DNA of 64,000 bases from an uncultured virus (IMG/VR IMGVR_UViG_3300025326_000019) (lineage: Duplodnaviria; Heunggongvirae; Uroviricota; Caudoviricetes), in IMG/VR virus record IMGVR_UViG_3300025326_000019. One strand, given 5' to 3'. Positions 36,170-57,961 of this stretch are shown piece after piece. The position numbers were made by a program, and so were the translations under genes. The stretch's first letter is position 1. Each line of letters opens with the position of its first letter. The notes under the pieces are model-generated. The model was given only the letters and a program-made list of their open reading frames with translations, searched no databases and had not been told where the DNA came from.

Positions 36170-37189
36170 ATGCCAAAAGGATATGTCACATCTGACATGA
36201 TCGACCTCAATGAGCTGTGGTATGCAGGCGGTGGTATCGCCGCTGCCGTCGATCAGTATCAAGCGGTCGAGATGCCGCTACTAAACGCACTCGCATTGCC
36301 GTGGCCGGAAAACATCATGAAGTACGGCATCAGCGAACGGAACGGATTCCAGGTCCTCGGGCCTGGGGAACGGCCAGACCGCAAGTACGTCGTAGAAGCG
36401 ACGATGTACCCCGTCGTGACGAAGTATGGCTACGGCGTGGGGACGGATCTCGATACCCTGCAACGCTCCAGCGCGCGGCAGATCATGCTCGCCATGAACC
36501 GGCCGATGCTGGAGGATCCTGAGCACATCCTGACGCGCATTCTCAAACTTCTAATGACGAACCCAGGTACCAGTAATGCTGGGTACGGATTCTGGAACGG
36601 GCAGTACGCGGCAGAGGAAATTATCACGCATCCGCCGGCCTATCAACAGCAGACGTTTGCGGCTGGCCACAACCACTTCTTGGTGTCGCTCACGGCCAGC
36701 ACACTCGTGCTCAAAGACATCACCGCGATGAAGCAGACAATCCGGCATCACGGGGCCAAGGGCACACTGCTTGGTTTCATCAATTCCGATACCGCGATGG
36801 CGATCGAGAACCTTGCGCTCTTTACCGTCGGCAGCACGGCGCTGGTGCGTTCGCCTGTATCGGATACCGTTGCGGTCGACGGCTTCGGGGAAAGCTTCAG
36901 GCTGCTCGGTGTCGACTGGTACGTCACGGAACTCGTGCCGGCCAACTACGTCCTCATGGTCGAAGGCAATTCTGCCGAGACTGAGCGGCCGTTGATCATG
37001 TACGAGCCCGCCGCGATGCGGGGGCTCAGGCTGCATCCAGGGCCGATGAACGACTATCCGCTCATCGAGTCCTTCTGGGATCGGTGGTTTGGATTCAAGG
37101 TCGCCAGGCGCGGTTCCGGTGCTGCGCTCTGGTTTGGTGCGCACGTCGGGACGTATACGTCGCCGACATTCTCGTTCACGGCGTCGTAA
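36170..37189 (+). CDS. major capsid protein
   Basis: 339 aa; position after scaffold and decoration genes; strong RBS; downstream hairpin. Confidence 0.8.
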   Translation: MPKGYVTSDMIDLNELWYAGGGIAAAVDQYQAVEMPLLNALALPWPENIMKYGISERNGFQVLGPGERPDRKYVVEATMYPVVTKYGYGVGTDLDTLQRSSARQIMLAMNRPMLEDPEHILTRILKLLMTNPGTSNAGYGFWNGQYAAEEIITHPPAYQQQTFAAGHNHFLVSLTASTLVLKDITAMKQTIRHHGAKGTLLGFINSDTAMAIENLALFTVGSTALVRSPVSDTVAVDGFGESFRLLGVDWYVTELVPANYVLMVEGNSAETERPLIMYEPAAMRGLRLHPGPMNDYPLIESFWDRWFGFKVARRGSGAALWFGAHVGTYTSPTFSFTAS

Positions 37190-37265: not shown

Positions 37266-37616
37266 ATGAGAACACATCAGAGGGAGAGGGTGAAGGAGCA
37301 TCTGATCGATCCGCGTCAATGGCGTGTCATCGGTCAATTGCGGCACCATGACGTGACGTACGGCACGGCAGAACCGCTGCCGGATATCACGGTGACTGAA
37401 GCGGCGCTGTACGAAAAGCAAGGCACATTGATGCGGGTGAGCGATACGGCACTCGCAGAATCATATCTTGAAGGGCCTGATGTGGCGGTGCTGCAGACTG
37501 TGCTCGACAAGAAACCGGATGAACGAGTGCTGAATCAGATGCTTACACTGGCGCAAAGGAATTCGCGATCCAAGGTGCTTGAATTGGCGCTGACCATTGC
37601 CAGGGGGAGTGCATAG
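37266..37616 (+). CDS. hypothetical protein
   Basis: GAGGAG RBS. Confidence 0.6.
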   Translation: MRTHQRERVKEHLIDPRQWRVIGQLRHHDVTYGTAEPLPDITVTEAALYEKQGTLMRVSDTALAESYLEGPDVAVLQTVLDKKPDERVLNQMLTLAQRNSRSKVLELALTIARGSA

Positions 37617-40672: not shown

Positions 40673-41771
40673 ATGGCAACTGCACGCATGAAGAAGGGTA
40701 GGCGCCCGCGGGGAGGAGTCACGCACTCCTCGATTCATGTCCGCGGGTTCGCTCGGATTCAGATGGGGGAGAGGGTCGACGGTCACCTGAAGATTGTCGG
40801 TGATTCCGGGTGGCTGAAGAACACGATTACCAACGAGGGGCGCAATCTGTACATCGCGGCGCAGGTCGGCTCTGTCACCGGTTCCAAGCAGGTGAACGCG
40901 CTCCAGCTTGCGACGCAGCAAACCGCTGTCGATGCCGCGTCCACGGCTCTTGTGGGTGAGACGCGCGTGCGGAAGACACTGCTGGCGTCCACCCTCGCAA
41001 CGGGTACGTTGCGGATGACCGCGTCCTGGTCGTCTACGGACAATGCGGCGGCGATCACCATCGGGTCGATCGCTGTGTACAACACCACTACCGCTGGGGC
41101 GGGTACCATGGGATCGGGCCAAAGTTTCACAACTTTGACTGTAAAATCAACTACTTACAGAGCGCCTGCTCTTTATCTAGTTGGTTGCGGAGCCTTGGCT
41201 GCGTGAGCTACCAAGGGATGGCCGCTAATTCGGCGAACGCTGTGATGCCAACGCCGAGCGAAATGCCTGAGGCGATGAGGACGCGCTCGCAACACGTCTC
41301 AGGTATCTGTGTAGAGATCATATACGGCCCTCTTCGGCGCGTGCAGACCGGAGATGAAGACATGATCCATGCCCTGGCGAATGATAAGTCAGGGAACCAG
41401 CCCGATAGCCCAGTAAATTTGACGCACTGCGCAATGGGCGTCAAATCAAGATTTGTCGGCTACGTTACTCCTGCTGCAAAATCAACTAGTTATATCTCAG
41501 AATATGAGAGATCGGTTGATAGCAGCGTAAAGGGGTCGGCGCGTCATATTGGTGACGATATGACGGATGGTGGCGAACTCGGTGGACGCTGTGATGCCAA
41601 TACCGAGCCAAGCGTTGGGTCAGGGGAGATCGCACTCGTTTGTACTGACTCAATGGCGTGTGTAGAGACTAGGTGCCACCCTCTCCCGTGCGGTAGTTTG
41701 GGAGATGAAGGTATAGTCCACTCCCCGGCGAACGATAAGTCGGGAGCCACGAGGACGAGTGGCGTTTCTAA
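40673..41771 (+). CDS. spliced structural protein, 171 aa: join(40673..41135,41430..41465,41755..41771)
   Basis: Removing both introns gives ...GSGQSFTT-SQWASNQDLSAT-YEWRF*; each 5' exon ends in U and each intron ends in G. Confidence 0.85.
41136..41429 (+). mobile_element. group I intron 1 (294 nt, no ORF)
   Basis: P AATTCGGCGAA, Q AACGCCGAGC, R GTAGAGATCA, S GAAGACATGATCC; P3 GGCCG/CGGCC; P7 GATCA/TGATC; IGS TTGCGGAG (41185-41192) pairs with CTT|CGCAA with U.G at the splice site. Confidence 0.9.
41466..41754 (+). mobile_element. group I intron 2 (289 nt, no ORF)
   Basis: P AACTCGGTGGA, Q AATACCGAGCCAAG, R GTAGAGACTA, S GAAGGTATAGTCC; P3 GGTGGC/GCCACC; P2 CGTCATAT/ATATGACG. Confidence 0.9.
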
Positions 41772-41807: not shown

Positions 41808-42926
41808 GTGATTTGGACGAAGGAGATGGATGCACTACTGCTCGAGAAGTATCCGAGCGAAGGTGCCCGTCCGTGCTCGGTACTATTCGGCGTATCAATC
41901 GACGCCGTATGGCACCGAGCACGGAAACTAGGCTGTCATGCGAGCAAGGAAGTGCAGAAGTCTGCCATCCGTAGATGGAAAGACGAGTACGACGACATTC
42001 TTCGGAAACGGTATGCAGTCGACGGTCCACAAAGAATAGCAGCAGAACTCAAATTATCTAGGCAAACCGTAGAGAATCGGGCAGCGGCTCTTGGTCTTAC
42101 AAAGGGACACTGGAGTCAGGAATCGGATGCAGTAATTAAATCCGGTTATGCCGCAGATGGTGCTGCAGCCGTTGCTAAGGTTCTAGGGGTACCAATTTCT
42201 GCTGTGTACCACCGTGCCCGACGACTTGGAATTAAATATGACTGGAAGACTCGTCGTGGACAGTCGCAGTGGCTTTCAGAAACAGTACGTGTAACCGCAG
42301 CTATCCGTGATGATTTAAAGTGTGGAATTTACGCTATTCGACATGGTGACAGTGGTCGGATGTATGTTGGTAGTGCTCTTGATATCTTTTCAAGATGGAA
42401 GGTACATCTAAGGGGTTTGCGTCAAGGTAAGCATCATTCTAGGGCATTACAAGCAATCTTCGATAAATATGGACCATCAGCATTCGTTTTTGAAGTTTTG
42501 GAAGAATGTGCTTCTGAACAGCTTTACGAGCGCGAACAGCAGTTCATGAATATTCATAAACCTGACTTAAATTCGGCTCCAAACGCGGGGAGTCCACGTG
42601 GCATTAAACGCACTGCTGAGCAACGTGTTGCCCATACAAAGAGAATAAGAGCTATTTACGCTGATCCAATTAAGCGCAAACGCATTAGGGCAGCAAAGTC
42701 AGCGGCTATGCGTGAAAAGTGGAAGAACTCAGAATTTCGAGGCAGAATGTCGACGGCTTGGCGTACGCGTCCGTGGGATGGCGAGGAGGATAATTACCTT
42801 TTCAATCTCTCTGGGCATCTTCCTCTTAAAGAATTAGCCGTAGTTTTTGGCCGAACACCGTCGGCCGTCCAAAATCGTGTCCATTTCCTCGGTCTCAGTC
42901 TCCGCGCCAAAGGAGCGAGGGTGTGA
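41808..42926 (+). CDS. free-standing GIY-YIG endonuclease with repeated HTH-like modules
   Basis: CGIYAI...MYVGSA...RW..H...L, EREQQF; three N-terminal and one C-terminal W...D..L HTH-like repeats. Confidence 0.9.
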   Translation: MIWTKEMDALLLEKYPSEGARPCSVLFGVSIDAVWHRARKLGCHASKEVQKSAIRRWKDEYDDILRKRYAVDGPQRIAAELKLSRQTVENRAAALGLTKGHWSQESDAVIKSGYAADGAAAVAKVLGVPISAVYHRARRLGIKYDWKTRRGQSQWLSETVRVTAAIRDDLKCGIYAIRHGDSGRMYVGSALDIFSRWKVHLRGLRQGKHHSRALQAIFDKYGPSAFVFEVLEECASEQLYEREQQFMNIHKPDLNSAPNAGSPRGIKRTAEQRVAHTKRIRAIYADPIKRKRIRAAKSAAMREKWKNSEFRGRMSTAWRTRPWDGEEDNYLFNLSGHLPLKELAVVFGRTPSAVQNRVHFLGLSLRAKGARV

Positions 42927-45893: not shown

Positions 45894-46063
45894 AAACGCT
45901 CAAAGTTAATAGGTCCATGGCTCCGATACCAATCTGGCGGGCTTGCAGTGCCTGCCATCTGGTGTTTTCTGTCGGCGTACCGGAAGGCACGGCACCTCGG
46001 CCAATCGCACATTGTCCAACTTGTGGATCTGAATTACTTGAACTGCTGGAGAAGATGACATAA
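45890..46063 (+). CDS. small Zn-ribbon protein
   Basis: GTGA overlap; CSAC...CPTCGS. Confidence 0.5.
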   Translation: MKTLKVNRSMAPIPIWRACSACHLVFSVGVPEGTAPRPIAHCPTCGSELLELLEKMT

Positions 46064-46605
46064 TGCCGCCTATTGCCCCGACACCATTGATGCGGTCACT
46101 GCCGAACATTATCGCGTCGATGTTCAGGTATTTATCCGATCTGCAGTATACGGTCGGTACCCGCACCGATACGCTCAAAGGATTCTTTCCGGGGCTCATT
46201 ATCTTTCCAGCGTTCCCGGATGACTTGACCGTACTGAAATCTCCCGTGCTCGCGCTGGGCAGTACGGAATATACGTCCCCTGGATTCGATCGATTCGGGT
46301 CCGTGGGATTCGACGCCGTGTATCGGTTGCCGCTGTGGGGATTTGTGTGTGGGCAGGGCGGCGATCAGAAGAACAAGGCCTATCGGGATCGGCTCATGAG
46401 CGATCTGATCGAGATCTTTTCTGGTACGGCGGCCAATGAGGGCATCGATCTTTATGATTCGGAAACGCGGCAAGTTATTTCCACCGTGGAAGTGGTCGGG
46501 TGCATGGCGCGAGAAGTGCCGACGAATGCGCCGACGATCGATGCAGATCGCTTTAGATTTCTTTGTGAGGTGGATGTTTCTATAGACGCTGGGTGGACAT
46601 CATGA
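46063..46605 (+). CDS. tail terminator protein (putative)
   Basis: Position before the tail tube; FP.....PVLAL, RDRL...L pattern. Confidence 0.55.
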   Translation: MPPIAPTPLMRSLPNIIASMFRYLSDLQYTVGTRTDTLKGFFPGLIIFPAFPDDLTVLKSPVLALGSTEYTSPGFDRFGSVGFDAVYRLPLWGFVCGQGGDQKNKAYRDRLMSDLIEIFSGTAANEGIDLYDSETRQVISTVEVVGCMAREVPTNAPTIDADRFRFLCEVDVSIDAGWTS

Positions 46606-47672
46606 CTATGGTCGATATTATCTGGCTCGCAGGTATTATTGAAGGCGAGGGATGTTTTAGTGATGTTTATCCAATTATTCAATTACAGATGACTGATAAA
46701 GATGTTGTCGAACGCGTAGCCAGTTTATTTGATAGACCACTAAGAGCATGGCAATCTAAAACTACAGGTCTTAAGCGTGTATACATTTGTAACGTGTCTG
46801 GGACTGACGCTATTTCTTGGATGATGACGTTGTACTCTGAAATGGGCACGCGTAGAAGGGGACAGATTAAGGAAGCTATAAACAAATGGAAAGCGTCCTC
46901 TCGAATTCCTCGAGGAGCAAATGGACGCAGGCTACCGGCTATCTGTCATCCTGATAGGTTACGTAAGGCTCACGGATTGTGTCCATCTTGTAGTGTAAAG
47001 AACTATAGATCGCGTGGTAACACTATGTCTGGAGATAGAATAAAACCAAGTGACTTACATCTACGCGTGAACGCGAAAATCCAAAATACGCATTCCATTG
47101 ATATCGCGAGAACGCGACCTGACTTAGGGGATATTACACCCATAGCTAAGGATATTTCTTGGCTTGCTGGCGTTCTTGAAGGCGAAGGATCATTCCTTAA
47201 AGCGAACAGGCAGCCTGTAATTTCGTTAGCAATGGCAGACCGTGATGTTATAGAACATGCTGCGCGTTTGTGGAATAGAGCTGCTAATACATGGCACCGC
47301 AAGGGTTCAACCTGTAAAGGTTCAAATTACAAACCCATACATTTCTGTCGTGTTACCGGCGTTGCTGCCATTTCTTGGATGATGACCTTGTATTCTAGTA
47401 TGGGTATTCGTAGGAAACAACGAATCAAAAGTCTTATAGAGGAATGGCGAGCTTCTTCAAATATGCCCAAGAGCTCAAGGGGTTATCGTTTCCCTGCTAT
47501 CTGTCACTCGGATAGAGTACGTCATGGACGTGGTCTTTGTCGTGCGTGTTATTGGAAAATTCACGGCAGTCCCAAAAGAAATACGAGCAAGCGATGCATG
47601 AACGATTCAACGTACAGCAATCTAACAAACACGAACGATGTACGACAAAACGAAGTTGAAGTAACGTCTTAA
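46602..47672 (+). CDS. free-standing tandem LAGLIDADG endonuclease (duplicated LAGLIDADG+Zn unit)
   Basis: WLAGIIEGEG and WLAGVLEGEG, each followed by AISWMMTLYS.MG.RR and PAICH.DR....GLC..C; AT-rich. Confidence 0.9.
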   Translation: MTMVDIIWLAGIIEGEGCFSDVYPIIQLQMTDKDVVERVASLFDRPLRAWQSKTTGLKRVYICNVSGTDAISWMMTLYSEMGTRRRGQIKEAINKWKASSRIPRGANGRRLPAICHPDRLRKAHGLCPSCSVKNYRSRGNTMSGDRIKPSDLHLRVNAKIQNTHSIDIARTRPDLGDITPIAKDISWLAGVLEGEGSFLKANRQPVISLAMADRDVIEHAARLWNRAANTWHRKGSTCKGSNYKPIHFCRVTGVAAISWMMTLYSSMGIRRKQRIKSLIEEWRASSNMPKSSRGYRFPAICHSDRVRHGRGLCRACYWKIHGSPKRNTSKRCMNDSTYSNLTNTNDVRQNEVEVTS

Positions 47673-47707
47673 CTAATACGATGTAACTATGCGAAAAGGG
47701 GAAGAAA

Positions 47708-48741
47708 ATGGCTCAGGAGGCAAAGCGTTACAGGCGCCGCAAGAAGGAAGACGTCAGCCCACGGGCTCAGGCGCACTAAGCGAGTGATCGCTTACGTGAA
47801 TCACGGCGAAGTCGGGGAACGCCCAGCCGGTCACCCGCCGGCGGCCAATCCCGAGCCAAGCGTTGCGAAGAGGGAGAACGCACTCCGCGGTACTCTCGCA
47901 ATGGCGTGTGTAGAGACTGGGTGCCGTGCGCTCCGGTGCGTTATCGGAGATGAAGGGACAGTCCGCGCCTCTGCGGAAGCAGAGGATTACGCGCTTCATC
48001 GATGGGTACTTTGTAGACAATGCCAACGTTGCAACGCCAGATGTGAACAAGACAGACGAAACCTTCCACGTATTCGGCAAGGATTCGCCCGAGTCCGATG
48101 TGCTGAACAACTACGGCACACTGACCCTGGGCCTGCTCGACAAGTACACGTCCAACGCCATCCTCGATCTGATCACGGGTCAGGATCCTGGAGACACGGC
48201 ACCGCATCGCTATCAGGCCGACGACCTTGGCACGGTGCACGTGTGGGCGAATATCAAGGATGCCAAGAATACGCAGTACCTCAAGTCGTGGTTCCTTGGC
48301 GGGTGGGCACCTGGTCTGCCAATGCCGTCAGGCAATCCGGAAGCCAAGGCTGCGGTGTCGATTGTCGGCAACGGACATTTGCCAGAACAGTATCAGGGCT
48401 GCTTCGTCATGATGAAGAAGGTGTCTTCAGGCGCAGCGGTATCCATGGGCGTCACGCCGATCCCGGTGCCCACAGGATCGCTGTCCGGCAATCCGCCGGA
48501 GAAGTACGCGATTTCCGTCAAGGCGATCAACGATACGACTGCATCGCCGGGCGGCAAGTTCGATCAGGAAGAGGTTACAGTGACGGCGGCGATGGTCACC
48601 TCGGCAGGGACCGTGGTATTTTCCGAGATCATGTCGCAAACGACACTGCCGGCCGTGACGCATGCGGCGGTGTACTACCTGTCGAGCGGGACCGGTGTGT
48701 ACCCGACGGCGAGTGCTAAGCCGGATAAGCTGCGGACGTAA
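47708..48741 (+). CDS. major tail tube protein (putative), spliced, 264 aa: join(47708..47754,47994..48741)
   Basis: Spliced product MAQEAKRYRRRKKEDV-FIDGYFVDN...; lies between the terminator and chaperone genes; followed by a hairpin. Confidence 0.8.
47755..47993 (+). mobile_element. group I intron 3 (239 nt, no ORF)
   Basis: P1 CGU|C with GGCG; P2 with GUGA tetraloop; P3 CACGGC/GCCGTG; R GTAGAGACTG, S GAAGGGACAGTCC; P9 CCTCTGC-GGAA-GCAGAGG; P9.0 then terminal G. Confidence 0.92.
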
Positions 48742-48781
48742 ACGGTAAAAGCGTCTTCTGACGCCGGAGCACCTGACAAGG

Positions 48782-48812
48782 GCGCCGCTTCCTGATTGTG
48801 GGGAGCGGCGCC
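48782..48812 (+). terminator. GC hairpin after the tail tube gene (no U tract)
   Basis: GGCGCCGCT / AGCGGCGCC stem. Confidence 0.55.
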
Positions 48813-48852
48813 ACAGTAAGACGTATAACGCACTCAAGCAAAGGAGCACGCA

Positions 48853-49749
48853 ATGGCTACCGATAAGGTCCGATCCCTGCCACGCCCGAAGTCTGCCGCC
48901 TCGAAGATCTTCGAACTGTTCAAGGAAACGGAATCCTACACGATTTTGGGTCCGCACGACGAACGCATTCCTATCTTGTTCCGGAGCCTCGATTACGGGC
49001 AGAATGCTGCCCTTGTCAAAGAAATGGACCTGATTCGGGCGGCCATCAAGGACGATTTCGAGGCTGAGGATCTCCGTGCGGGGCTCACCGATCAGGTGGT
49101 TCGGTTGACACGGGAGAAGCTCCTGGACGCGATTCTGAGTCTCGAGCGTCCGCTCGCCACTGAACAGGCGGATCTAGCGCCCGGCGCGGATCCTGAAGCC
49201 ATCGACGCGGCAAAGAAGGAACAGGAAGCCGTGGTCAAATGGGAAGAAGCTAGGAAGACTGAGCTTGAGGGTATGGAGGACAAGGATCTCCGGACCCTGG
49301 TCGTGGATCGGCAGACGCGGTTGCTCGTCAATAGCCGACTGCTTGGGGAATTCATGAATTCTTCTCTCGTGCACATGGTCCTCGATCCGGAGACTCAGGA
49401 CGCCATGTTTTCGGCGGATGCCTTCGAATGCGCGCAGTGCGGGAAGCGATCGCGGGATCTGTCGCCGACAGCGGAGATCTGCTGTGGGCAACCGATGGAA
49501 CCCGTGGCGAACTTCATCGGCCGCCTCGCGCCGCAAATCCGGGAGCAACTGGTCGAATTCCGTCGCCAGTTCACGATGAAGAAAGATGAGAAAGAGATTC
49601 GGAAGGTCGCCGAGTCGAACGCTTTTTTACCCTCTGGCGAGTCAGCCACAAAGTCGGACGATTCCCCTGGGGCAACGATCGAGACCCCGGCGACCTCCCA
49701 GCCTGTGTCGTCAGCTTATATTCCAGGAGAGGGTGGCTCGACAGTGTAG
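48853..49749 (+). CDS. tail assembly chaperone (gpG-like)
   Basis: Between tube and tape measure; contains a slippery site. Confidence 0.8.
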   Translation: MATDKVRSLPRPKSAASKIFELFKETESYTILGPHDERIPILFRSLDYGQNAALVKEMDLIRAAIKDDFEAEDLRAGLTDQVVRLTREKLLDAILSLERPLATEQADLAPGADPEAIDAAKKEQEAVVKWEEARKTELEGMEDKDLRTLVVDRQTRLLVNSRLLGEFMNSSLVHMVLDPETQDAMFSADAFECAQCGKRSRDLSPTAEICCGQPMEPVANFIGRLAPQIREQLVEFRRQFTMKKDEKEIRKVAESNAFLPSGESATKSDDSPGATIETPATSQPVSSAYIPGEGGSTV

Positions 49750-50053: not shown

Positions 50054-53000
50054 ATGGCTGATCAAGCGACAGATCTCCTCTTAACTATTGGTGCTGATAC
50101 TACAGCGCTGAGACAGCAGATCGCGCTGCTCAGTCAAGAGCTTGGTGTTGCTATTCAGCCGATCAAGCTGAGGGTTGAAGCAACTGGGGTTAAGGAAGTT
50201 GAGCAAGGCCTGACAGGTGCGCAGGTAGCCGCTAGTAAAGTTACTGCTGAACTCAATGATGTTCAAAAGGCCCTTGATCGTAATGCAGCGGCTACTGTAC
50301 GGTGGCAAGCAGAATTTGCCGCCGGAACGCAGAGAGCTGGTCGAATACAATCTGCTGCCATTGCTGAAAATGAAACGTTAACCAGAAAGCTCGGAGTTAC
50401 ACAGATTCAAAGTGGGCTGGAATATGAAGCTCTACTCCGAAAACTTGGCGTTACGCAGATTCGAGCGGCGACAGAATACGAAGCTGCGGTACGGAAATTA
50501 GGCGTTGCACAAGTTCAAGGATATGCAGAGAATGCCCGCCTTGAACAGCAACAACAATTGCAGCGTATTCGTAATATCGAAGCACTTAAAGTACAACTTG
50601 CCCAGCTTCAGAAACTGCAAGCAAGTATTAATCTCCCCGCTGGATTTACTTCGCAGATTACGACATTGCAGGGCGCTCAAGCAACGCTACAAGCAGGCGG
50701 TATTATTGATCCCGTTGTACTCGCTCGACTCAAGACCCAAACGAGCGAATTTCGCCGCGAGATTGAAACACTGAATCCAAAGATTGCGCAAGCCGACTCC
50801 TTCCTCAGTACATTTTTCGGTCGCTTCGGTCGCTATATTCAGATCGCCGGGCAGTTGACTCTTGTCTACGGCGCCTTCCGGGCCGTCACGTCAGAGATTA
50901 CCGAATTCATCGCAGTTGACAAGATCCTGCACCAGATTGCTGCAACGATGGATCAGAGTGCGAATCGCGCTGAAGTATTGCGTCAGTCGTGGGCGCTCAT
51001 GGTGCAGGCAAATCAGGCCTTTGGTACGAGTTTTTCAGAAGCTGGCAAAGTGGTGTTTGAACTGCAGAAAGCGCTCAATAACAGCGCTGAACAGATTCAA
51101 GGTGCGTTTATTCCTGCTCTGGCATTAGCTTCACTCGGGGAAGGCAATCAGACAGAGATTATCCGGGCACTCATTGGACTCTATAAGATCTTTGGCGACA
51201 CATTAGGTAATACGACACCGCAGGAAAAGTATCTCGCCATTTCTGATAAATTGATCGCCGCAGCGGCGTCGTCTATCCAAGACATTGACGGATTCAGAAC
51301 TGCACTCCAAAACGTCGCACCAGTTGCAGCGGTAGCGAATATCAGCCTCAACGAAACTCTTGCCGGCTTAATTCTTTTGACGAACGGACTGCAATCAGCC
51401 AGCCGTGCTGGTACTGGTTTCCGGGCACTGATTGTCGATCTTCAGACACGCGGGCCGCAAATCGCCCAAGCACTAAAGATTCCATTTGATATTGATGCGC
51501 CATTAGATGCCATGAAATTGTTGGACCGGGTTATTGCGAAACTGAAAGAAACGGGTGCGACATCACTTCAGACACAACTCGCTATCAACGCAGCATTCCC
51601 GGATAAGCGTGCTGCCCTTGCATTGGAAGCGTTTGTTAAGACATGGGGAGACTACGGCAATGCTCTCAACGACGTCACAAATTCTGCTGGTAAAACTGGC
51701 GTTGTAGTCAAGGAATTATCTGAAACTGTCAGTGCGGCATTTGGACGCTTATCGGGAGCGTTATTCAAGGGATTTGCTGACAGTCTCGACGTATTGTTCA
51801 ACGTTAAACCAGGCGATACTGCTGGGCTTGTTCAGGCTATTGATGCTGTCACGGGTGCTATTAAGTTGCTTTCCGGTGATGCTGTAACAGCCATCACAAT
51901 CCTGAAACAGTTGTTGGAACTTGTTCCACGCATACCGAAATTACCGGGAGAAGGGCCTGGACGAACTGGCGCTGAAACAATACGACGCTTTGTCGGACAG
52001 GTTATCCCAGGGTTAGGTCTTGCGCAAGGATTAGCAGACATTAAGGCAGCGAATGACGCCCAGGTTATTGCAAATCAACTTGCAAGCGAGCAGCAATATC
52101 TGTTAGCTGCAGGAGTTGGGGATTCCCTTAAGAGCAATGCAATCCTTGCACAACGCACTGAGCTCACAGCAGAACTGAACAAACGCCTCGCGGAACTCCA
52201 TAGTATCGCCCAGGCGAATCTCGCAGTCAGCGATCAGACATTGTCGTTCGACGCGCGGCTGGCTGCGGCCGAATTTCTTATTACGAAACGTCGGCAGGAA
52301 CGGATCCAAGCTGAAAACGATTTTCGGCAATTAGATTTGCCCAAGGCTGAACAAGGCTCGATCGACACCGCTGGTGCAAAAGTTATTGCAACGCTCGAGG
52401 CGGAAAATCGAGCGATCAAGCAACGGTTGGAACTCAAGAAACAGGTCAATGATGCAGATATTGCTTTCTCTCAGCAACAGGCAAAGTCGGCAGAGGATGC
52501 CAGAAAAGCGCTTGAGGCCTTCGATAATCTGCTTGCATCACAGCAAGGCAAGCTCAAGGATCTGACGGCCAGCGAAAAGTTTGCGGCTGACGATATGGCG
52601 AAGTTGTTGAGCACGTTAAATGATTTGCAGTTCAAGGCCATCTCACCGGAGGAATTCGCAGCCCGTAATGCTGCCGTGACAGCATTTGGAATTGCCTTGC
52701 AAAGAAATCTCATTGAACCGCTCCTGCAAATTACGCGCTCTGATCAGGAAAATGCGCTTGAGAATTTGTTCGCCGCTATGCTAAAAGCTGGCCGAGAAGC
52801 CGATAATCTCCGGTCAAAACTCGGCCCAGGCGCGACCAGCGGTATCACTGGAGGTGTGCTACCAACAGGTATTGCCGTCCAGACACGATTGACTGAGCGT
52901 GATCTTGGTCTGGATAAGATGCGCGATGCCCTCAATCAACTCGGCGCGCAATCGTCAAACATTTTCGAGCAGATGATCCTTGATACAGCAGCCGCTGGAA

Positions 53001-56000
53001 AGGGATTTACAAGCTTTGCAGCATTGGTCGAAGCCTCCGCACACGCTGCGGCCATTGCAGAATCCATGCTCGAAGATGCGGCGACACCTGTCACTGAAGC
53101 GGAGCAAAAAGCTACCAAAGCAGCGTTAGATAGAGCCGATGCGCTTGCAATCCTCGTCACGGTAATCCAGAAACTTGTACCAGAAACCAAGGCACTTCAA
53201 AATGCAGAGATTACTGACGCCACCAGACAAACTACGAATGCCCTACGAGATGCCGTCGCAGCATTTGGTCAGGTGGGCGCGGAAACGCAAAAATATACCC
53301 TCGCACGCGTATCACTCAAACGTTCGTATGATGATCTCCTGCCAGCGGAAAAAGCGGAGATTGACGCGCTGGCAAGATTACAGGAACGTCTACAGATACT
53401 CTCAGCCCTTGATGCTGGTACGAAGACAGCCATTGACGACCTGAAACTTTTGACCGCCAATTTTGGCCTGTCGGATGAAGCTGCAGCGCGTAATACATTA
53501 GCAATCAAGCTCACGCATAAAACTTATACAGAGCTTGCTGAAGCAGCACAGGATTCATCTGATGAGCTTGTGGAATTCATTGCCACGCAAGCAAAATTAA
53601 CAGTTGAAGCCAAACGTGTGAACGATGTCCTTGCTCTACAAGCGATAGGGTTTAGTAAACTTGCGGCAGAAGCGATCGTCGCGCAGAATTCTATTAACGC
53701 TATTAAATTCAAGGCCCTAGATGATGCTATTGTGCAATTAGAAGCAGCGAATACTAGCACACAAAAGTTTGCGGAAAAGTGGTCAGAGTTGCAGGTTCAG
53801 TTAGCTCAACAAACTGGCAATCCCTTCGCCTTCTTTCTCGCATCCATGGACGCCGCAGGAGTCAAGGCCGGCGATTTCTGGGAGAATCTCCGCACGCTAG
53901 CTGAAGATACCGCGAAGCAGATGTCCAGTTCGCTGTCCGACTTCTTTTTTGCCAAGTTCACGGGCCAGTTGACCACTGCCAAGGAACTCTTCAAAGCATT
54001 CACAGACTCCATTCTTCGGTCCATCTCGAACTTTCTGGCCCAAGCTGTCGTCTCACAATTCTTGTCGCTCCTTGGCAGCGTGGGCAGTGCAGTGTTTGGT
54101 ACTGGAGGTAGCGCTGCAGCCAGTGCTGCAAGCGCTGTCGGCGGCACTGGCTTAGGAGGTATTTCGTCTTCGGCCTTGGCAGCCCTTGGATTATCAGTTG
54201 GTGGATCAGCACTGATTGCCGGGAATGCGCTCGGTATACCTGGATTGTCGTCAGCTGGTGGCGTCGGTTCGTTAGTGGGTGGGTTGAGCGCGGTCGTGCA
54301 GGCCGTGACAGCCAATACCTCAGCAATTACAGCGGCTACGGCTGGCACGGCAAACTTTACCACGGTGATGGGTCTTCAAATCAATGCACAGGCTGCGCAA
54401 ACAGCCGGGCTGTCTGGCCTTGGAAGTCTCCAGGGTATCGGGGGTCTTGCGGGTATTGCCGGTGGACTGCTGGGCCTTTTCGGTGGCGGTGGTTTACAAG
54501 TCCAAAGTGCTTCGTCATTACTCGGTCTTCTTGGAACTGGTATCGGCTTGGCTGGTGCAGTTGGAGCAGGTGGCTTAGGTGCAGCGGCAGCTGGTGCAGG
54601 TGCTGGACTTGCTGGCGCTGGAGCGGCGGCAGCTGCCTTCGCTCCCTACATCGCCGCCGTGGTCGCGGCGGTCTTCGGTATCATGAATTCATTCCAGACA
54701 TCGACGGCTGCCGGCTGGGCCGCACTGACGCCCGCGCAGCAAACAGGGACGGTTATCGGAGCGTCGATTGGCAATCCACTCCTTGCTCCGTTCGCGTTAT
54801 CAGGCATTATTCCAGCGCGGTATGCCTCATTCATCGACCCCATTGGTGGATGGATTGGCGGTCTGCTGGGCGGTCTCTTTGGAGGAGCACCACGGCTGAC
54901 CCACGCACAGCGTGAAGCGCTCGAGGCCAACCGTGCCATCAGCGCGGCCAACGTCTTCAATCAAAATATTGCGGCATCGATGACGCCGACACAATTGTTT
55001 AGTACGCTTGTCGCTCAACAGTCTCAGTCCGTAGGAGGGACAGCGAGTACCGCTATTTCCGTAGGCATTAGACGCCCAATGACCATTGATGAGTTGCGGG
55101 CGTTAGTAGCCGCTGGCGATATTTTGCTTCCGACTGGCAAAACTGTCGAAGAAGTGATCGCGACATGGTCGAATATGTTTGCCCCGGGTGCATCAACCAC
55201 ATTTGGTGTCGGTTTGCAAAATGCCGCGCAACCCGTGTGGACACAACAAGGATTTTTCAGACAGGCTGCGTTAGATCCAACGTCTGTGTTTTCTGGTATC
55301 CAAGCTGGCGTTACGCCAGGTCTTATCACGCCGGCAAATCAAGCCGTCGTGACGACGATCCTGAATCAAATTACGAATATCAAGACGCTGAGTACCGCGA
55401 TCAACCAAGCCATCGCGGATATCTTTGCCGGAACAGGACCAACGCCACCTATAAAATTAACTGACCATTTGAGGACGCAAGCCAAGGATTTTCGTACTGT
55501 TCTCGATCAACTCATTCAAGATAACGCTGACGAGCAAGCGAGAATCACCGGACTGCTAGAGACGGAAACAAACCCAGGGAAAGTCCTGGAATACACCGTA
55601 CAAATCAGAGACCTCATCCAAGCGCGCTATGACGATGAAATCAAGCTCGTCAAACAATTTGCTGGGGCGTTAGATGAGCTTGCGGCTAATTTCGTGAAGG
55701 TTGCCAAGGCCGTAGATGATCAGATTGCTGCACTCCAAGAACAGTATTTCCCTCTCGATCCAAGTAGTCCTGAAGCTGCAACGAAGCGGCAAGCAACCCT
55801 CTTTGATGCACAGAAGATTTTTAGCAGCGCAGTCAAGGACTTTTTTGGTGGAGCGACGAAGCCATCGATTACGTCTTTGGGTTTCGGTTCCGTTGTGCCG
55901 CCAACAAGCGAGATTATGACACCGGGTGTTGGTATTGCTGCGACACGATTCGGCCCCATTACTCCTGGTTTTACTGTCGGACCAGGAGGAACTCCTACCC

Positions 56001-57961
56001 CAGAAAACGCGCAAGCTATCCAGGCAGCGGCAGCAGCCTACCTTGCGGCAGCGGATGATATACGACAAGCCGCGTACAATACCGCTGATGCTCTTGATCA
56101 ACTTGCTGAGGACCTCAGAGCCGTCAGCGAATCCATTGCAGACCAGATTGCTGAATTGCAACAAGCCTACTTTCCACCTAGCGCAGAAGAGGCGCTTGCG
56201 TCAACGCAGGATGACTTCAACCAAGCTCGACAAGCGTTCTTTGGTGGGCCTGGGGAGGGTATGCAGGCCCAAACCATAGAAAATGCGCAGGCTATCCAAG
56301 CATCGGCCTCAGCATATCTTGCGGCAGCGGATGCCATTCGGCAGGCAGCCTATAAAGCTGCGGACGCGCTGGATCAAGCTGCTGAGGAATTTCAAGCTGC
56401 CAGCGCATCTATCGCAGAGCAGATCTCCGCATTACAGCAAACATATTTTCCGCCGAGTGACACGCAAGCACTTGCATCTGCGCAGGCAGCATTTGATGTG
56501 GCAAAGGGAGCCTTCTTTGGCGGACCCGGAGAAGGCATGCAGGTACAAACCCCTCAGAGTGCACAAGCTATTCAAGCTGCAGCATCGTCATATCTTGCGG
56601 CGGCCAGTGCGGCAGACAAGAAGCGCTGGGCTGATGAACAGGCTCTGAAAAAGGCCATGGGGCAGGACGAAGAAACCCTCATTAATAATCGATACGATGC
56701 TGAACGGGAACGGATCAATGCAAAATATGATCTCGAACGGGAACGTATCCAGAAAATTCTCTCATCGATCCAAGAATTAAAGCAAGTCAGTGAAGCTCTC
56801 GAGAAACAGATTCTTGGATTGAAGCTATCTAATTTTGGTTCGACGAATCCGTCCGATCAGTTTCAGCTTGCACAGCAAACCTATGAAGATGCGCTGGCTG
56901 CGTTCAATGCCGATCCTACCGCGAAAAATGCCCAGGCTGTCCAGGCTGCTGTTGACGCCATGTTGCAGAAAGCCGCCGATTTATATACGCGACCGTCGAC
57001 AGCATTTCGCGCAATATTTGATCAAACAATCAAAGACCTTGAGGCAGTCAAAGCTCGCGTCGACAAGGAAGCTGATCTCGCAAGTTTGCTTGCAGACGGG
57101 AATGCGCTTGCAGCGCTGACAGCGAAACACACCGCAGATCTCAAAGCACTGGCAGAACAGCAACGCATCGAGTTAGCCGCAGCACTTGCCAATGCTACGT
57201 ACAAGCCCTCACCGGAATTCACAAAAATCTTTGATGACACCATCGCAACCCTTACGGCTGTCCAGGCTATCATAGATGAACAGGCAGCGGCGGCAGCGGC
57301 GGCAGCAGCAGCAACCCGCGCGGCGGCGGATGCCGCGTTCCTGGCTGTCTTTACGTCCACCATTGCCACCCTTACCGCTGTCCAGGTCATCATAGACGAT
57401 CAAGCTCGAGCCAATGCTGCGACAGCAGCAGCGACCCGTGCAGCTGCGGATGCTGCGTTTCAAGCCATCTTTAATACAACCATTGCCGCACTTGAAGCCG
57501 TCGGAGTGTCTCTCCACGCGCAGGCAGCAGAAATCACTGATGTCTTAGGTGAAATTCTTGGGATCGGTAATACGATTGCCGATCTGACCGCACACAATAC
57601 GACTGCGATGGCTGACGACATGGCAGAACTTCTCGCGTTAGTGCGTGCGCGTTTCATTGCGCTTGGATTTGAACCACCGCCACCGGAAACCCCGAGCGCT
57701 CAGCACGGTGCATGGTATACCGCAGGGGGCCTGTATCGACTTCACGAAGGTGAAATGGTCTTGCCTCCGGCTGTGGCCGCATCCATACGGCAGAGTGGCG
57801 GTGGGGGCGGAGGGATTACACTTATGATTTCCCCTGGGGCCATTGTCGTGACCGGAACCTCGGATCCTATCGAAGTAGGCAAGTCAGTCGTCAAGGAAGT
57901 CGAGTCGAGCATTCGTACTGGGCGCTTGGGACATGTCATTGCGCAGCGAGTAGGCAAATGA
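50054..57961 (+). CDS. tape measure protein (2635 aa)
   Basis: Ala/Gln helical; TP901-like core (NVAPVAAVANISLNET...SRAGTGFRAL); Gly-rich hydrophobic region; C-terminal LHEGEMVLP. Confidence 0.92.
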   Translation: MADQATDLLLTIGADTTALRQQIALLSQELGVAIQPIKLRVEATGVKEVEQGLTGAQVAASKVTAELNDVQKALDRNAAATVRWQAEFAAGTQRAGRIQSAAIAENETLTRKLGVTQIQSGLEYEALLRKLGVTQIRAATEYEAAVRKLGVAQVQGYAENARLEQQQQLQRIRNIEALKVQLAQLQKLQASINLPAGFTSQITTLQGAQATLQAGGIIDPVVLARLKTQTSEFRREIETLNPKIAQADSFLSTFFGRFGRYIQIAGQLTLVYGAFRAVTSEITEFIAVDKILHQIAATMDQSANRAEVLRQSWALMVQANQAFGTSFSEAGKVVFELQKALNNSAEQIQGAFIPALALASLGEGNQTEIIRALIGLYKIFGDTLGNTTPQEKYLAISDKLIAAAASSIQDIDGFRTALQNVAPVAAVANISLNETLAGLILLTNGLQSASRAGTGFRALIVDLQTRGPQIAQALKIPFDIDAPLDAMKLLDRVIAKLKETGATSLQTQLAINAAFPDKRAALALEAFVKTWGDYGNALNDVTNSAGKTGVVVKELSETVSAAFGRLSGALFKGFADSLDVLFNVKPGDTAGLVQAIDAVTGAIKLLSGDAVTAITILKQLLELVPRIPKLPGEGPGRTGAETIRRFVGQVIPGLGLAQGLADIKAANDAQVIANQLASEQQYLLAAGVGDSLKSNAILAQRTELTAELNKRLAELHSIAQANLAVSDQTLSFDARLAAAEFLITKRRQERIQAENDFRQLDLPKAEQGSIDTAGAKVIATLEAENRAIKQRLELKKQVNDADIAFSQQQAKSAEDARKALEAFDNLLASQQGKLKDLTASEKFAADDMAKLLSTLNDLQFKAISPEEFAARNAAVTAFGIALQRNLIEPLLQITRSDQENALENLFAAMLKAGREADNLRSKLGPGATSGITGGVLPTGIAVQTRLTERDLGLDKMRDALNQLGAQSSNIFEQMILDTAAAGKGFTSFAALVEASAHAAAIAESMLEDAATPVTEAEQKATKAALDRADALAILVTVIQKLVPETKALQNAEITDATRQTTNALRDAVAAFGQVGAETQKYTLARVSLKRSYDDLLPAEKAEIDALARLQERLQILSALDAGTKTAIDDLKLLTANFGLSDEAAARNTLAIKLTHKTYTELAEAAQDSSDELVEFIATQAKLTVEAKRVNDVLALQAIGFSKLAAEAIVAQNSINAIKFKALDDAIVQLEAANTSTQKFAEKWSELQVQLAQQTGNPFAFFLASMDAAGVKAGDFWENLRTLAEDTAKQMSSSLSDFFFAKFTGQLTTAKELFKAFTDSILRSISNFLAQAVVSQFLSLLGSVGSAVFGTGGSAAASAASAVGGTGLGGISSSALAALGLSVGGSALIAGNALGIPGLSSAGGVGSLVGGLSAVVQAVTANTSAITAATAGTANFTTVMGLQINAQAAQTAGLSGLGSLQGIGGLAGIAGGLLGLFGGGGLQVQSASSLLGLLGTGIGLAGAVGAGGLGAAAAGAGAGLAGAGAAAAAFAPYIAAVVAAVFGIMNSFQTSTAAGWAALTPAQQTGTVIGASIGNPLLAPFALSGIIPARYASFIDPIGGWIGGLLGGLFGGAPRLTHAQREALEANRAISAANVFNQNIAASMTPTQLFSTLVAQQSQSVGGTASTAISVGIRRPMTIDELRALVAAGDILLPTGKTVEEVIATWSNMFAPGASTTFGVGLQNAAQPVWTQQGFFRQAALDPTSVFSGIQAGVTPGLITPANQAVVTTILNQITNIKTLSTAINQAIADIFAGTGPTPPIKLTDHLRTQAKDFRTVLDQLIQDNADEQARITGLLETETNPGKVLEYTVQIRDLIQARYDDEIKLVKQFAGALDELAANFVKVAKAVDDQIAALQEQYFPLDPSSPEAATKRQATLFDAQKIFSSAVKDFFGGATKPSITSLGFGSVVPPTSEIMTPGVGIAATRFGPITPGFTVGPGGTPTPENAQAIQAAAAAYLAAADDIRQAAYNTADALDQLAEDLRAVSESIADQIAELQQAYFPPSAEEALASTQDDFNQARQAFFGGPGEGMQAQTIENAQAIQASASAYLAAADAIRQAAYKAADALDQAAEEFQAASASIAEQISALQQTYFPPSDTQALASAQAAFDVAKGAFFGGPGEGMQVQTPQSAQAIQAAASSYLAAASAADKKRWADEQALKKAMGQDEETLINNRYDAERERINAKYDLERERIQKILSSIQELKQVSEALEKQILGLKLSNFGSTNPSDQFQLAQQTYEDALAAFNADPTAKNAQAVQAAVDAMLQKAADLYTRPSTAFRAIFDQTIKDLEAVKARVDKEADLASLLADGNALAALTAKHTADLKALAEQQRIELAAALANATYKPSPEFTKIFDDTIATLTAVQAIIDEQAAAAAAAAAATRAAADAAFLAVFTSTIATLTAVQVIIDDQARANAATAAATRAAADAAFQAIFNTTIAALEAVGVSLHAQAAEITDVLGEILGIGNTIADLTAHNTTAMADDMAELLALVRARFIALGFEPPPPETPSAQHGAWYTAGGLYRLHEGEMVLPPAVAASIRQSGGGGGGITLMISPGAIVVTGTSDPIEVGKSVVKEVESSIRTGRLGHVIAQRVGK
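55710..56620 (+). repeat. three ~92-aa repeats in the tape measure (first copy has an insertion)
   Basis: QI..LQ..YFP....FFGG....AQAIQA.A..YLAAA; 276-nt period between copies 2 and 3. Confidence 0.85.
57227..57500 (+). repeat. 40-aa (120-nt) tandem repeats in the tape measure
   Basis: F..TIATLTAVQ.IID.QA....A.AAATRAAADAAF. Confidence 0.85.

What the first reader, a model, noticed from the sequence alone, without database searches (positions are those of the whole stretch)
47708..48741. Group I intron inside the putative major tail tube gene
Seen: a compact 239-nt intron with canonical P1 (U.G), GNRA-capped P2 and P9, and P9.0 plus terminal G. Unspliced RNA gives a 23-aa peptide; spliced RNA gives 264 aa. 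Inference: one of the most abundant virion proteins depends on self-splicing. The track start at 47926 lies inside the intron.
Basis: partly seen in the sequence, partly recalled or inferred. Interest (0 to 1): 0.7.

Follow-up and report, generated by a model that had tools for sequence, protein, structure and literature searches.

The report
Self-splicing intron in phage tail-tube gene
An uncultured soil phage carries a small self-splicing-type (group I) intron near the start of its major tail-tube gene, next to a separate homing-endonuclease gene; it is real, but the layout is already known from other phages.

Summary
A 239-nt insert (47755-47993) splits a 264-codon gene. Joining 47708-47754 to 47994-48741 gives an open frame, the same length as the nearest uninterrupted homologue and 220/264 identical to it. 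29 of 30 aligned homologues carry the exon-1 peptide fused directly to exon 2. The insert follows a U and ends in G. All of P1-P9, with the P3/P7 pseudoknot, can be drawn with standard pairs only. Rfam's group I model matches it end to end but below threshold (22.8 bits against 50, E 7.5e-4). A model built from it finds two paralogous introns 6 kb upstream and viral introns that pass Rfam's threshold. Across the nine matches 93% of pair cells are paired, against 68% in shuffles. A homologue's predicted structure has the tail-tube fold, with the junction inside its first strand. A LAGLIDADG endonuclease gene absent from all 15 relatives examined lies 83 nt upstream. Splicing was not observed because no RNA data exist. 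Tail-tube introns beside endonuclease genes are published for Staphylococcus phage 812, so this is a new member of a known kind.

The parts
46593..47672 (+). Free-standing LAGLIDADG homing-endonuclease gene (359 aa, two LAGxxEGEG motifs), inserted between the upstream structural gene and the tail-tube gene
   Evidence: Pfam PF14528 E 9.2e-7; phrog_5046 E 8.6e-22. No tblastn hit in any of the 15 related loci examined, where the neighbouring genes keep their order. GC 43-46% against 55-63% in flanking genes.
47708..47754 (+). Exon 1 of the tail-tube gene (MAQEAKRYRRRKKEDV, last codon split GT|C)
   Evidence: Matches the conserved N-terminus MA.EGRRFRRRKKEDV of 29 of 30 aligned homologues and of 14 uninterrupted loci. 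AAGGGG lies upstream of the ATG.
47755..47993 (+). Group I intron A, 239 nt, without an ORF
   Evidence: RF00028 at 47758-47985, 22.8 bits, E 7.5e-4, model positions 1-253. Hand structure uses standard pairs only. Covariation. Absent from every non-identical homologue seen.
47752..47773 (+). P1: exon CGU plus intron CAGCC paired to the guide sequence, with U47754.G47771 at the 5' splice site
47777..47779 (+). TAA in frame with exon 1, inside P2
   Evidence: 23-aa ORF. The review PMC3984707 (passages read) describes such stops as common in group I introns of coding genes.
47802..47928 (+). P3 (47802-07 with 47923-28) enclosing the P4-P5-P6 domain (47812-47909) and the 5' strand of P7
   Evidence: P3 has changes on both sides at 5 of 6 pairs, and the P6 extension (helix 8) at 9 of 9.
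47913..47964 (+). P7 (G47913-C47964 and 47915-19 with 47959-63, A47914 bulged) enclosing P8 (47931-35 with 47945-49) and J8/7 AUGAAGGGA
   Evidence: P7 was not part of the search model, yet 100% of its cells are paired and 3 of 6 pairs show changes on both sides.
47965..47993 (+). P9.0 (GCG/CGC), P9 hairpin with GGAA loop, terminal G47993
47994..48741 (+). Exon 2 of the tail-tube gene
   Evidence: Its first residue aligns to residues 17-25 of most of the full-length homologues listed. Tail-tube fold of the 84%-identical homologue P0002.
41135..41431 (+). Paralogous intron B1 (about 297 nt) in the gene that starts at 40673. Its boundaries are uncertain by 7 nt: the alternative register is 41128-41424
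   Evidence: Model R1 gives 60.4 bits at 41164-41407. Homologues run on past ...GQSFTT. Registers tested.
41466..41754 (+). Paralogous intron B2 (289 nt), preceded by U41465 and ending in G41754. It leaves a 17-nt last exon, 41755-41771
   Evidence: R1 gives 109.6 bits. RF00028 gives 23.1 bits, E 0.0038. It is 77% identical to intron A over 135 nt. The spliced C-terminus ...SATYEWRF* equals that of the homologues.
41808..42926 (+). Free-standing GIY-YIG homing-endonuclease gene, 36 nt downstream of the twice-interrupted gene
   Evidence: Pfam PF01541 E 4.5e-9; phrog_314 'homing endonuclease' E 7.5e-20. GC falls to 43-49%.

Best explanation
The 239 nt at 47755-47993 are a small group I intron without an ORF, lying 47 nt into the major tail-tube gene of a siphovirus-like soil phage. 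In the late transcript a ribosome starting at 47708 would stop at the in-frame TAA (47777) inside P2. That leaves the ribozyme core free to fold into P3-P9 with the P3/P7 pseudoknot. A free guanosine bound at the G47915-C47963 pair beside the bulged A47914 would attack after U47754, which forms the U.G wobble in P1. The freed exon 1 would then attack after the terminal G47993. This joins GACGU to CUUCAUC and restores a 264-aa tube protein whose first beta-strand spans the junction. The intron belongs to a family with two more copies in another structural gene 6 kb upstream. Steps shown here: the interruption, its exact boundaries, the fold-compatible architecture, covariation, family membership and the identity of the host gene. 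Steps inferred: catalysis and splicing in vivo. Also inferred: the neighbouring free-standing LAGLIDADG endonuclease cuts intron-less alleles at or near the conserved insertion site AAGGAAGACGT|CTTC and drags the intron along ('collaborative' or trans homing).
For: Colinearity. 29 of 30 aligned homologues read ...RR(F/Y)RRRKKE(D/V)(V/I)F(V/I)(E/D)GY... without interruption. 14 of 22 fetched loci show it in their DNA. A fifteenth, L017, has only 65 nt between the upstream gene and the exon-2 equivalent. The exhaustive HMMER search (36 hits) aligns exon-2 residue 1 to homologue residues 17-25 in most full-length hits. The spliced frame is 264 aa with no stop, and 220/264 identical to the 264-aa P0002 in an alignment of 264 columns.

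Boundaries. U at position -1 and G at the intron's end, at the only register that is also colinear.

Structure. 17 helical segments, all standard pairs.

Rfam. RF00028 matches full length at 22.8 bits, E 7.5e-4, and aligns the same P3, P4, P5, P6, P8 and P9 that I drew.

Family. Model R1, built from this intron alone, finds B2 (109.6 bits), B1 (60.4) and six viral loci. Two of these, L038 and L042, score 61.1 and 53.0 bits with RF00028, above its threshold of 50.

Covariation on 9 sequences. 93.0% of cells are paired against 67.8% in shuffles (0 of 500 shuffles reach it) and 34-42% when the partner is slid. 51 of 75 pairs change on both sides.

DNA presence. The intron is bridged identically by contigs of separate runs, so it is not an assembly artefact.

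Host gene. AF2 model of P0002 at pLDDT 92.5, with strand E14-18 spanning the junction at residues 16/17. Foldseek finds tail-tube chains at probability 1.00, E from 2.9e-6. A tape-measure gene lies downstream.

Endonuclease. Absent from all 15 relatives examined and low in GC. The insertion site is conserved at nucleotide level.
Against: No RNA evidence: 0 of 16 listed runs is RNA, so splicing is unobserved. The RF00028 score is below Rfam's gathering score (22.8 against 50). The match was missed entirely when the whole window or a 2.8-kb stretch was searched. Of 20 viral loci sharing the core motif, 17 gave no RF00028 match at E <= 0.01, so the motif alone does not establish a group I intron. 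Folding energy is not above chance (z -0.64). The covariation alignment was fitted to my structure, except for P7, and holds only 9 sequences, three of them from this window. No intron-less DNA variant of this phage was seen in the 4 runs laid (no joints), so mobility has no direct support. Nothing links the LAGLIDADG enzyme to the insertion site except proximity.
Confidence: 0.87

Rival explanations
1. The intron is real and splices, but the LAGLIDADG gene is an independent free-standing homing element. It would target its own intergenic insertion site ('intron-less homing'), and its position next to the intron would be a coincidence of two selfish elements in one conserved region.
For: The endonuclease gene lies outside the intron and 83 nt from the insertion site. 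The same genome has a second free-standing endonuclease of another family (GIY-YIG), also just outside an interrupted gene. So such genes may simply be frequent in this structural module.
Against: Both endonuclease genes lie within about 100 nt of intron insertion sites. Both are missing, together with the introns, from the relatives examined. The paired layout is the one described for collaborative homing (PMC3984707, passages). In phage 812 the tail-tube introns and the adjacent endonuclease gene are both missing from the 812a-derived mutants (PMC6445280, passages).
Confidence: 0.3
2. The insert is a dead or non-splicing insertion and the tail-tube gene is a pseudogene in a decaying prophage.
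For: Splicing was not observed. Rfam's score is below threshold. No intron-less variant was seen.
Against: The insert keeps every group I helix with standard pairs, together with U(-1) and a terminal G at the one colinear register. Both exons remain open and 83% identical to an intact homologue. All neighbouring structural genes are intact and keep their order. The same sequence recurs in 14 runs holding at least half of its sampled words.
Confidence: 0.06
3. There is no exon 1. Translation starts at GTG 47926, as gene callers annotate, and the upstream 47 nt only resemble the homologues' N-terminus by chance.
For: Gene callers produce this 271-aa ORF (P0001, on 11 contigs).
Against: The first 23 residues of that ORF have no counterpart in any homologue. 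The 16-residue exon-1 peptide carries the RRRKKE stretch that is nearly invariant in the homologues. No ribosome-binding site precedes 47926. In the model the junction sits inside the first strand.
Confidence: 0.03

Closest known systems
[quoted passage not shown] 2019, PMC6445280; passages read)
   Same: Introns without ORFs inside the tail-tube gene, with a separate endonuclease gene directly beside it. Presence or absence varies among relatives: phage K and the 812a-derived mutants lack both the introns and the endonuclease gene.
   Different: That is a low-GC myovirus of Staphylococcus, with the endonuclease gene next to the tube gene and a different intron lineage. Here the phage is a high-GC soil phage with siphovirus-like gene order, has one intron, and carries a LAGLIDADG enzyme upstream. 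No DNA similarity to any of 50,697 phage records.
Cluster J mycobacteriophages: introns in the capsid gene (LittleE, 819 bp, LAGLIDADG-like ORF) and a minor tail gene (BAKA/Optimus, 265 bp) (Pope et al. 2013, PMC3706429; passages read)
   Same: Small group I-type introns in virion genes of phages with high-GC hosts. Paralogous introns sit in two structural genes. U at -1 and G at the intron's end. Found by colinearity with uninterrupted relatives. That paper showed splicing by RT-PCR.
   Different: There the LAGLIDADG ORF lies inside an intron and the tail intron is in a minor tail gene. Here the enzyme gene is free-standing and the host gene is the major tube protein. Sequence relatedness to those introns was not tested beyond the negative blastn.
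Collaborative (trans) homing: a free-standing endonuclease plus an intron without an ORF at one target site (review by Hausner et al. 2014, PMC3984707, passages read; F-CphI paper PMC6083498 and T4 mobE paper PMC2790892 seen only in the search listing)
   Same: An intron without an ORF next to a free-standing endonuclease gene. Intron-less alleles have a conserved target sequence.
   Different: In the published cases cleavage at the intron insertion site was demonstrated. Here it is inferred from position only. The enzyme here is LAGLIDADG, whereas the review says phage intron enzymes are mostly GIY-YIG, HNH, PD-(D/E)xK or EDxHD.
Staphylococcus phage Twort orf142 with three group I introns
   Same: Several small group I introns in one late structural gene.
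   Different: Not checked here. A different lineage according to the negative blastn.
Small bacterial IC3-type introns of tRNA genes (Azoarcus, cyanobacteria): a resemblance recalled from memory only
   Same: Size of about 200-250 nt. P2 and P9 capped by GNRA loops. No large peripheral domains. Motifs resembling CCGAGCCAAGC and GUGUAGAGACU.
   Different: Subgroup membership was not tested. ARAGORN found no tRNA gene in any of 60 genome loci that share the core motif, and only 1 of 80 such loci matched model R1.

Membership tests
Group I intron | 5' splice site after a U that forms a U.G wobble in P1 with an internal guide sequence | tested here: met
   U47754.G47771, flanked by G47753-C47772 and C47755-G47770.
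Group I intron | Terminal G at the 3' end, preceded by P9.0 | tested here: met
   G47993. P9.0 pairs 47965-67 with 47990-92. This is the only register that is also colinear with the homologues.
Group I intron | Conserved core: the P4-P6 domain and the P3-P7-P8 domain, with a P3/P7 pseudoknot | tested here: met
   All helices can be drawn with standard pairs. Covariation: P3 at 5 of 6 pairs, P7 at 3 of 6, and the P6 extension (helix 8) at 9 of 9 pairs with changes on both sides.
Group I intron | Guanosine-binding G-C pair in P7 next to a bulged nucleotide | tested here: met
   G47915-C47963 beside the bulged A47914. This G-C pair is invariant in all 9 sequences. That it binds guanosine is inferred.
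Group I intron | Reaches the curated score of Rfam RF00028 | tested here: not met
   22.8 bits against a gathering score of 50, though E is 7.5e-4 and the match covers the whole model. No hit in the wider searches. Relatives found with this intron's own model do pass: L038 at 61.1 and L042 at 53.0 bits. This is a database threshold, not a biological criterion.
Group I intron | Self-splicing by two transesterifications started by free guanosine | not testable with these tools
   No RNA run holds the locus.
Phage tail-tube protein (host gene) | Tail-tube fold, and a position upstream of the chaperone and tape-measure genes | tested here: met
   Foldseek against the PDB: diffocin, phiCD508, phage 812, AFP/PVC, siphophage R4C and T4 tube chains, probability 1.00, target TM-score 0.53-0.81 over about 140-155 columns. 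The tape-measure gene is 50054-57961. No Pfam or PHROG family matches the protein. The fold was predicted for the homologue P0002, not for the window's own joined product.
Collaborative/trans homing pair | A free-standing endonuclease gene next to an intron without an ORF, both missing from intron-less relatives | tested here: met
   0 of the 15 related loci examined has the LAGLIDADG gene or the intron.
Collaborative/trans homing pair | The endonuclease cleaves the intron-less allele at or near the intron insertion site | not testable with these tools
   Only the proximity (83 nt) and the nucleotide conservation of the site are known.

The most novel reading that the evidence does not exclude
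One intron lineage may be actively colonising the structural module of this phage group. Three paralogues lie within 7 kb of each other. Two sit 34-42 nt apart at the very end of one gene and leave a 17-nt last exon. They are served by two free-standing endonucleases of different families (GIY-YIG and LAGLIDADG), each parked just outside the interrupted gene. Among homologues of that second gene, about ten have aberrant C-termini that break off at four or more different codons within ...TTSQWNSNQD.... This suggests a hotspot where related introns have inserted at several neighbouring sites. In addition, intron B1 cannot combine a U at -1, a G at its end and a colinear product. It therefore either deletes one codon on splicing or uses a non-G end.
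Probability: 0.35. Interest if true: 0.55.

Novelty: new member of a known kind. Interest (0 to 1): 0.4.

Why it matters
Annotation. Gene callers start this abundant virion protein at a false GTG inside the intron, lose its conserved N-terminus, and add 23 residues of intron translation. The wrong 271-aa product is what public protein collections hold.

Biology. The case extends tail-tube introns with a neighbouring endonuclease gene from low-GC Staphylococcus myoviruses to a high-GC soil phage with siphovirus-like gene order. It also provides a compact 239-nt ribozyme candidate with two natural paralogues for comparison. A free-standing LAGLIDADG gene lies 83 nt from the insertion site of an ORF-less intron. 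That makes it a testable candidate for the proposed intermediate stage in the origin of mobile introns.

Tried and rejected
Rfam over the whole window at gathering scores and over 46000-48800 at E <= 10 gave no group I match. Only short stretches did.

blastn of the intron against 50,697 phage records gave only 24-30-nt chance matches, E >= 3.

A third blastn match in the window, 13698-13761 (E 0.017), lies in a repetitive coding region and was dropped after reading it. Model R1 does not find it.

RNA evidence: no RNA holder is listed among the 16 runs.

Contigs of 4 DNA runs showed no joint across any intron or endonuclease gene.

The window's own assembly is not held. The nearest record, G001, was used instead.

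Model R1 matched only 1 of 80 bacterial and archaeal loci that share the core motif. ARAGORN found no tRNA gene in 60 of them. The recalled link to IC3 tRNA introns therefore stays untested.

A full-text search for the core motif found only two unrelated papers.

Scans of viral contigs for relatives of the LAGLIDADG protein and of the second interrupted gene returned only this phage and two uninterrupted relatives.

The promoter and terminator scan of 46000-49200 found no more than the shuffles did.

The model's first placement of intron B2's 3' end (G41761) was rejected in favour of G41754. Only G41754 gives the conserved ...YEWRF* ending.

Translational bypassing and an intein were considered and dismissed: the 239 nt are not a multiple of three and contain stop codons.

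Full report
**What is in the sequence**

An ATG at 47708, with AAGGGG about 7 nt upstream, opens a frame. It reads MAQEAKRYRRRKKEDV and then runs on to a TAA at 47777-47779, giving a 23-aa ORF. A second frame, open from a GTG at 47926 to 48741, is what gene callers annotate. That 271-aa product is stored in the public collection on 11 contigs. Joining 47708-47754 to 47994-48741 by coordinates inside a script gives 795 nt and 264 aa with no internal stop.

- The word-indexed search found 35 proteins at E <= 0.001, one of them the window's own.
- I aligned 30 of the other 34. I left out P0005, P0021, P0029 and P0030, which are short or partial.
- 29 of the 30 carry ...G(R/K)R(F/Y)RRRKKE..F(V/I)(E/D)GY... 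as one uninterrupted stretch.
- 27 of them start M(A/P) a few residues before it. P0033 and P0034 have a longer called N-terminus. P0004 (239 aa) starts later, at MNVATP, and may be partial or itself interrupted.
- P0026 begins MAQEGRRFRRRKKEDVFIDGYFVDH, almost the joined window sequence.
- The exhaustive HMMER search with exon 2 alone gave 36 hits. Most of the full-length hits align exon-2 residue 1 to their residues 17-25, so they have room for a 16-residue exon-1 equivalent.
- Of 22 loci fetched from viral and metagenome contigs, 14 show the uninterrupted N-terminus in their DNA.
- Five loci (L001, L002, L005, L006, L007) match the window's 271-aa tube ORF at 100% identity, intron-encoded N-terminus included.
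- L020 and L022 cover only later parts of the gene. L017 has just 65 nt between the upstream gene and the exon-2 equivalent.
- The joined product is the same length as P0002 (264 aa) and 220/264 identical to it in a 264-column alignment.

So an intervening sequence is real. Its ends are fixed to one base of ambiguity, because C47755 equals C47994. Of the two registers, only 47755-47993 places a U before the intron and a G at its end.

**Is it a group I intron?**

Every canonical helix can be drawn, and a script confirmed that all 75 pairs are standard:

| Element | Position |
|---|---|
| P1 | 47752-55 with 47770-73, including U47754.G47771, plus an extension of 47756-59 with 47764-67 |
| P2 | capped by GUGA |
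| P3 | 47802-07 with 47923-28 |
| P4, P5/P5a, P6/P6a/P6b | within 47812-47909 |
| P7 | G47913-C47964 and 47915-19 with 47959-63, A47914 bulged |
| P8 | 47931-35 with 47945-49 |
| J8/7 | AUGAAGGGA |
| P9.0 | GCG/CGC |
| P9 | capped by GGAA |
| Terminal G | G47993 |

Rfam gave a mixed answer:
- No hit in the whole window at gathering scores.
- No hit in a 2.8-kb stretch at E <= 10.
- When given only 351 nt, where its filters are laxer, RF00028 matched 47758-47985 on the + strand over model positions 1-253. The score was 22.8 bits, E 7.5e-4, against a gathering score of 50.
- That alignment uses the same P3, P4, P5, P6, P8 and P9 that I drew.

Folding energy is not unusual for this GC-rich composition (z -0.64).

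**Paralogues and family**

Searching the nearest held virus record, and then the window itself, with the intron found a 135-nt stretch at 41596-41730 that is 77% identical. A covariance model built from intron A alone with my structure (R1) gave three hits in the window:
- intron A itself;
- 41527-41768 at 109.6 bits (intron B2);
- 41164-41407 at 60.4 bits (intron B1).

It also hit six of the 23 other viral loci searched. Those loci came from a scan for two motifs shared by the three window introns. That scan found 27 viral loci, four of them this same phage, and at least 120 loci in bacterial and archaeal genomes.

I gave 20 of the 23 viral loci to Rfam. Three of them produced seven RF00028 matches, five above the gathering score (L044 81.1; L038 61.1 and 60.8; L042 60.8 and 53.0). 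The other 17 produced none at E <= 0.01. Two of the introns that pass Rfam's threshold (L038:667-850 and L042:1-192) are also R1 hits. This ties intron A to accepted group I introns.

Covariation on the 9-sequence alignment:
- 93.0% of pair cells are standard pairs, against 67.8% in shuffles (0 of 500 shuffles reach it) and 34-42% when partners are slid by 1-3 columns.
- 51 of 75 pairs show changes on both sides.
- P7 was not in the model, so the alignment was not fitted to it. It is 100% paired, with changes on both sides at 3 of 6 pairs. In the window, for example, GACUG/CAGUC in A corresponds to GACUA/UAGUC in B2 and GAUCA/UGAUC in B1.

Caveats: there are only nine sequences, three from this window, and the other helices were fitted by the model.

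**The host gene**

Neither Pfam nor PHROGs recognises the protein. I did not fold the joined product. I folded the unaltered 84%-identical homologue P0002 with a 47-row alignment, which gave pLDDT 92.5 and pTM 0.88. Foldseek against the PDB returns tail-tube chains of contractile and non-contractile tails:
- diffocin 8v3t_B, E 2.9e-6;
- phiCD508 9gb1_S;
- phage 812 8q01;
- AFP and PVC tubes;
- siphophage R4C 8gtb_A;
- T4 5w5f.

All are at probability 1.00, over about 140-155 of the 264 residues. The rest is an extra domain.

The splice junction (residues 16/17) lies inside strand E14-18, in a block with pLDDT 95. A protein started at 47926 would therefore lack part of the fold.

The gene order is major head protein (36170-37189), several unknown genes, this gene, two small genes, then a 2635-aa tape-measure protein. 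That order fits the major tail protein of a siphovirus-like tail.

**Neighbourhood and mobility**

- The ORF 46593-47672 is a two-motif LAGLIDADG protein (Pfam PF14528, phrog_5046). It ends 36 nt before exon 1 and 83 nt before the insertion site.
- In the 15 related loci examined, the four flanking genes that lie within each locus keep their order and the LAGLIDADG gene is absent.
- Its GC content is 43-46%, against 55-63% around it.
- In intron-less relatives the insertion site sits in a conserved stretch, AAGGAAGACGT|CTTCGTCGA.

This is the layout called collaborative or trans homing (review PMC3984707, passages). That this endonuclease cuts that site is my inference. No intron-less DNA variant of this phage appeared in contigs of four runs.

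The gene starting at 40673 has homologues that end ...GSGQTFTTSQW(N/A)SNQDLSATYEWRF. In the window this end is in three pieces.

- Intron B2 is 41466-41754 (289 nt), with U before it and G at its end. It leaves a 17-nt exon 3 (41755-41771) and restores ...SATYEWRF* exactly.
- For intron B1, the colinear junction (41134|41429) would end the intron in U. The two registers with U at -1 and a G at the end (41135-41431 or 41128-41424, both 297 nt) each lose one residue. A P1 of CAACU with GGUUG favours the first. This remains unresolved.
- A GIY-YIG endonuclease gene (41808-42926) lies 36 nt downstream.
- About ten homologues have aberrant C-termini that break off at several different codons of this region. 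Several end in ...ALAA like the window's own read-through. This suggests other interrupted alleles, but I could not fetch their DNA.

**Comparison with what is known**

[quoted passage not shown] The 812a-derived mutants lack both the introns and that gene (PMC6445280, passages).
- Related small group I-type introns in capsid and minor-tail genes of Cluster J mycobacteriophages were shown to splice. One carries a LAGLIDADG-like ORF (PMC3706429, passages).
- Earlier notes of this scan list further tail-tube introns. I treated those as leads only.

The finding is therefore a well-supported new member of a known kind. Its modest novelty lies in three points: a high-GC soil phage lineage, a free-standing LAGLIDADG partner, and three paralogous introns with two endonucleases of different families within 7 kb.

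Noticed in passing
window 40673-41771: A second structural gene of unknown function, 3.5 kb downstream of the major head gene, is split by two introns paralogous to the tail-tube intron (about 41135-41431, and 41466-41754). They leave a 34-nt middle exon and a 17-nt last exon. For the first intron, a colinear junction is incompatible with a G at the intron's end.
   Followed up: partly
window 41808-42926: A free-standing GIY-YIG homing-endonuclease gene with several helix-turn-helix domains lies 36 nt after the twice-interrupted gene. Its GC content is low (43-49%).
   Followed up: partly
proteins P0072, P0073, P0080, P0081, P0090, P0105, P0106, P0108, P0112, P0119: Homologues of the 40673 gene from other metagenomes have aberrant C-termini that break off at four or more different codons within ...TTSQWNSNQD.... 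Several end in ...ALAA like the window's own read-through into intron B1. This looks like a hotspot of intron insertions, but their DNA could not be fetched.
   Followed up: no
loci L038, L042, L044 (viral contigs): Other viral contigs carry two or three tandem RF00028-positive group I introns within about 1.4 kb. The genes they interrupt were not examined.
   Followed up: no
window 50054-57961: The tape-measure gene encodes 2635 aa, which implies a very long tail. It contains long Ala/Gly-rich and repeated Q/A-rich segments.
   Followed up: no
window 11986-14994: A 1002-aa ORF is built of many imperfect repeats of an acidic unit, rich in D, V and T. It caused a spurious blastn match to the intron at 13698-13761.
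   Followed up: no
window 48781-48812: A 12-bp GC-rich hairpin without a U-tract lies just after the tail-tube stop codon. It could be a transcript-stabilising or attenuating element after the highly expressed tube gene. It is read by eye, and the terminator scan did not list it.
   Followed up: no
window 31684-32838 and 37616-39928: Two glycosyltransferase-like ORFs (phrog_2170) flank the major head protein gene. This is an unusual place for such genes.
   Followed up: no
window 42923 (run X12): One contig matches the window only from 42923 onward, the end of the GIY-YIG ORF, and has 21 unrelated letters before that point. It may be a variant that lacks the endonuclease gene, but it is too short to tell.
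   Followed up: no
loci L013, L014, L015: In these relatives about 490 nt separate the upstream gene from the exon-2 equivalent of the tube gene, against 65-145 nt in most other relatives. The extra DNA lies upstream of the start codon and was not examined.
   Followed up: no
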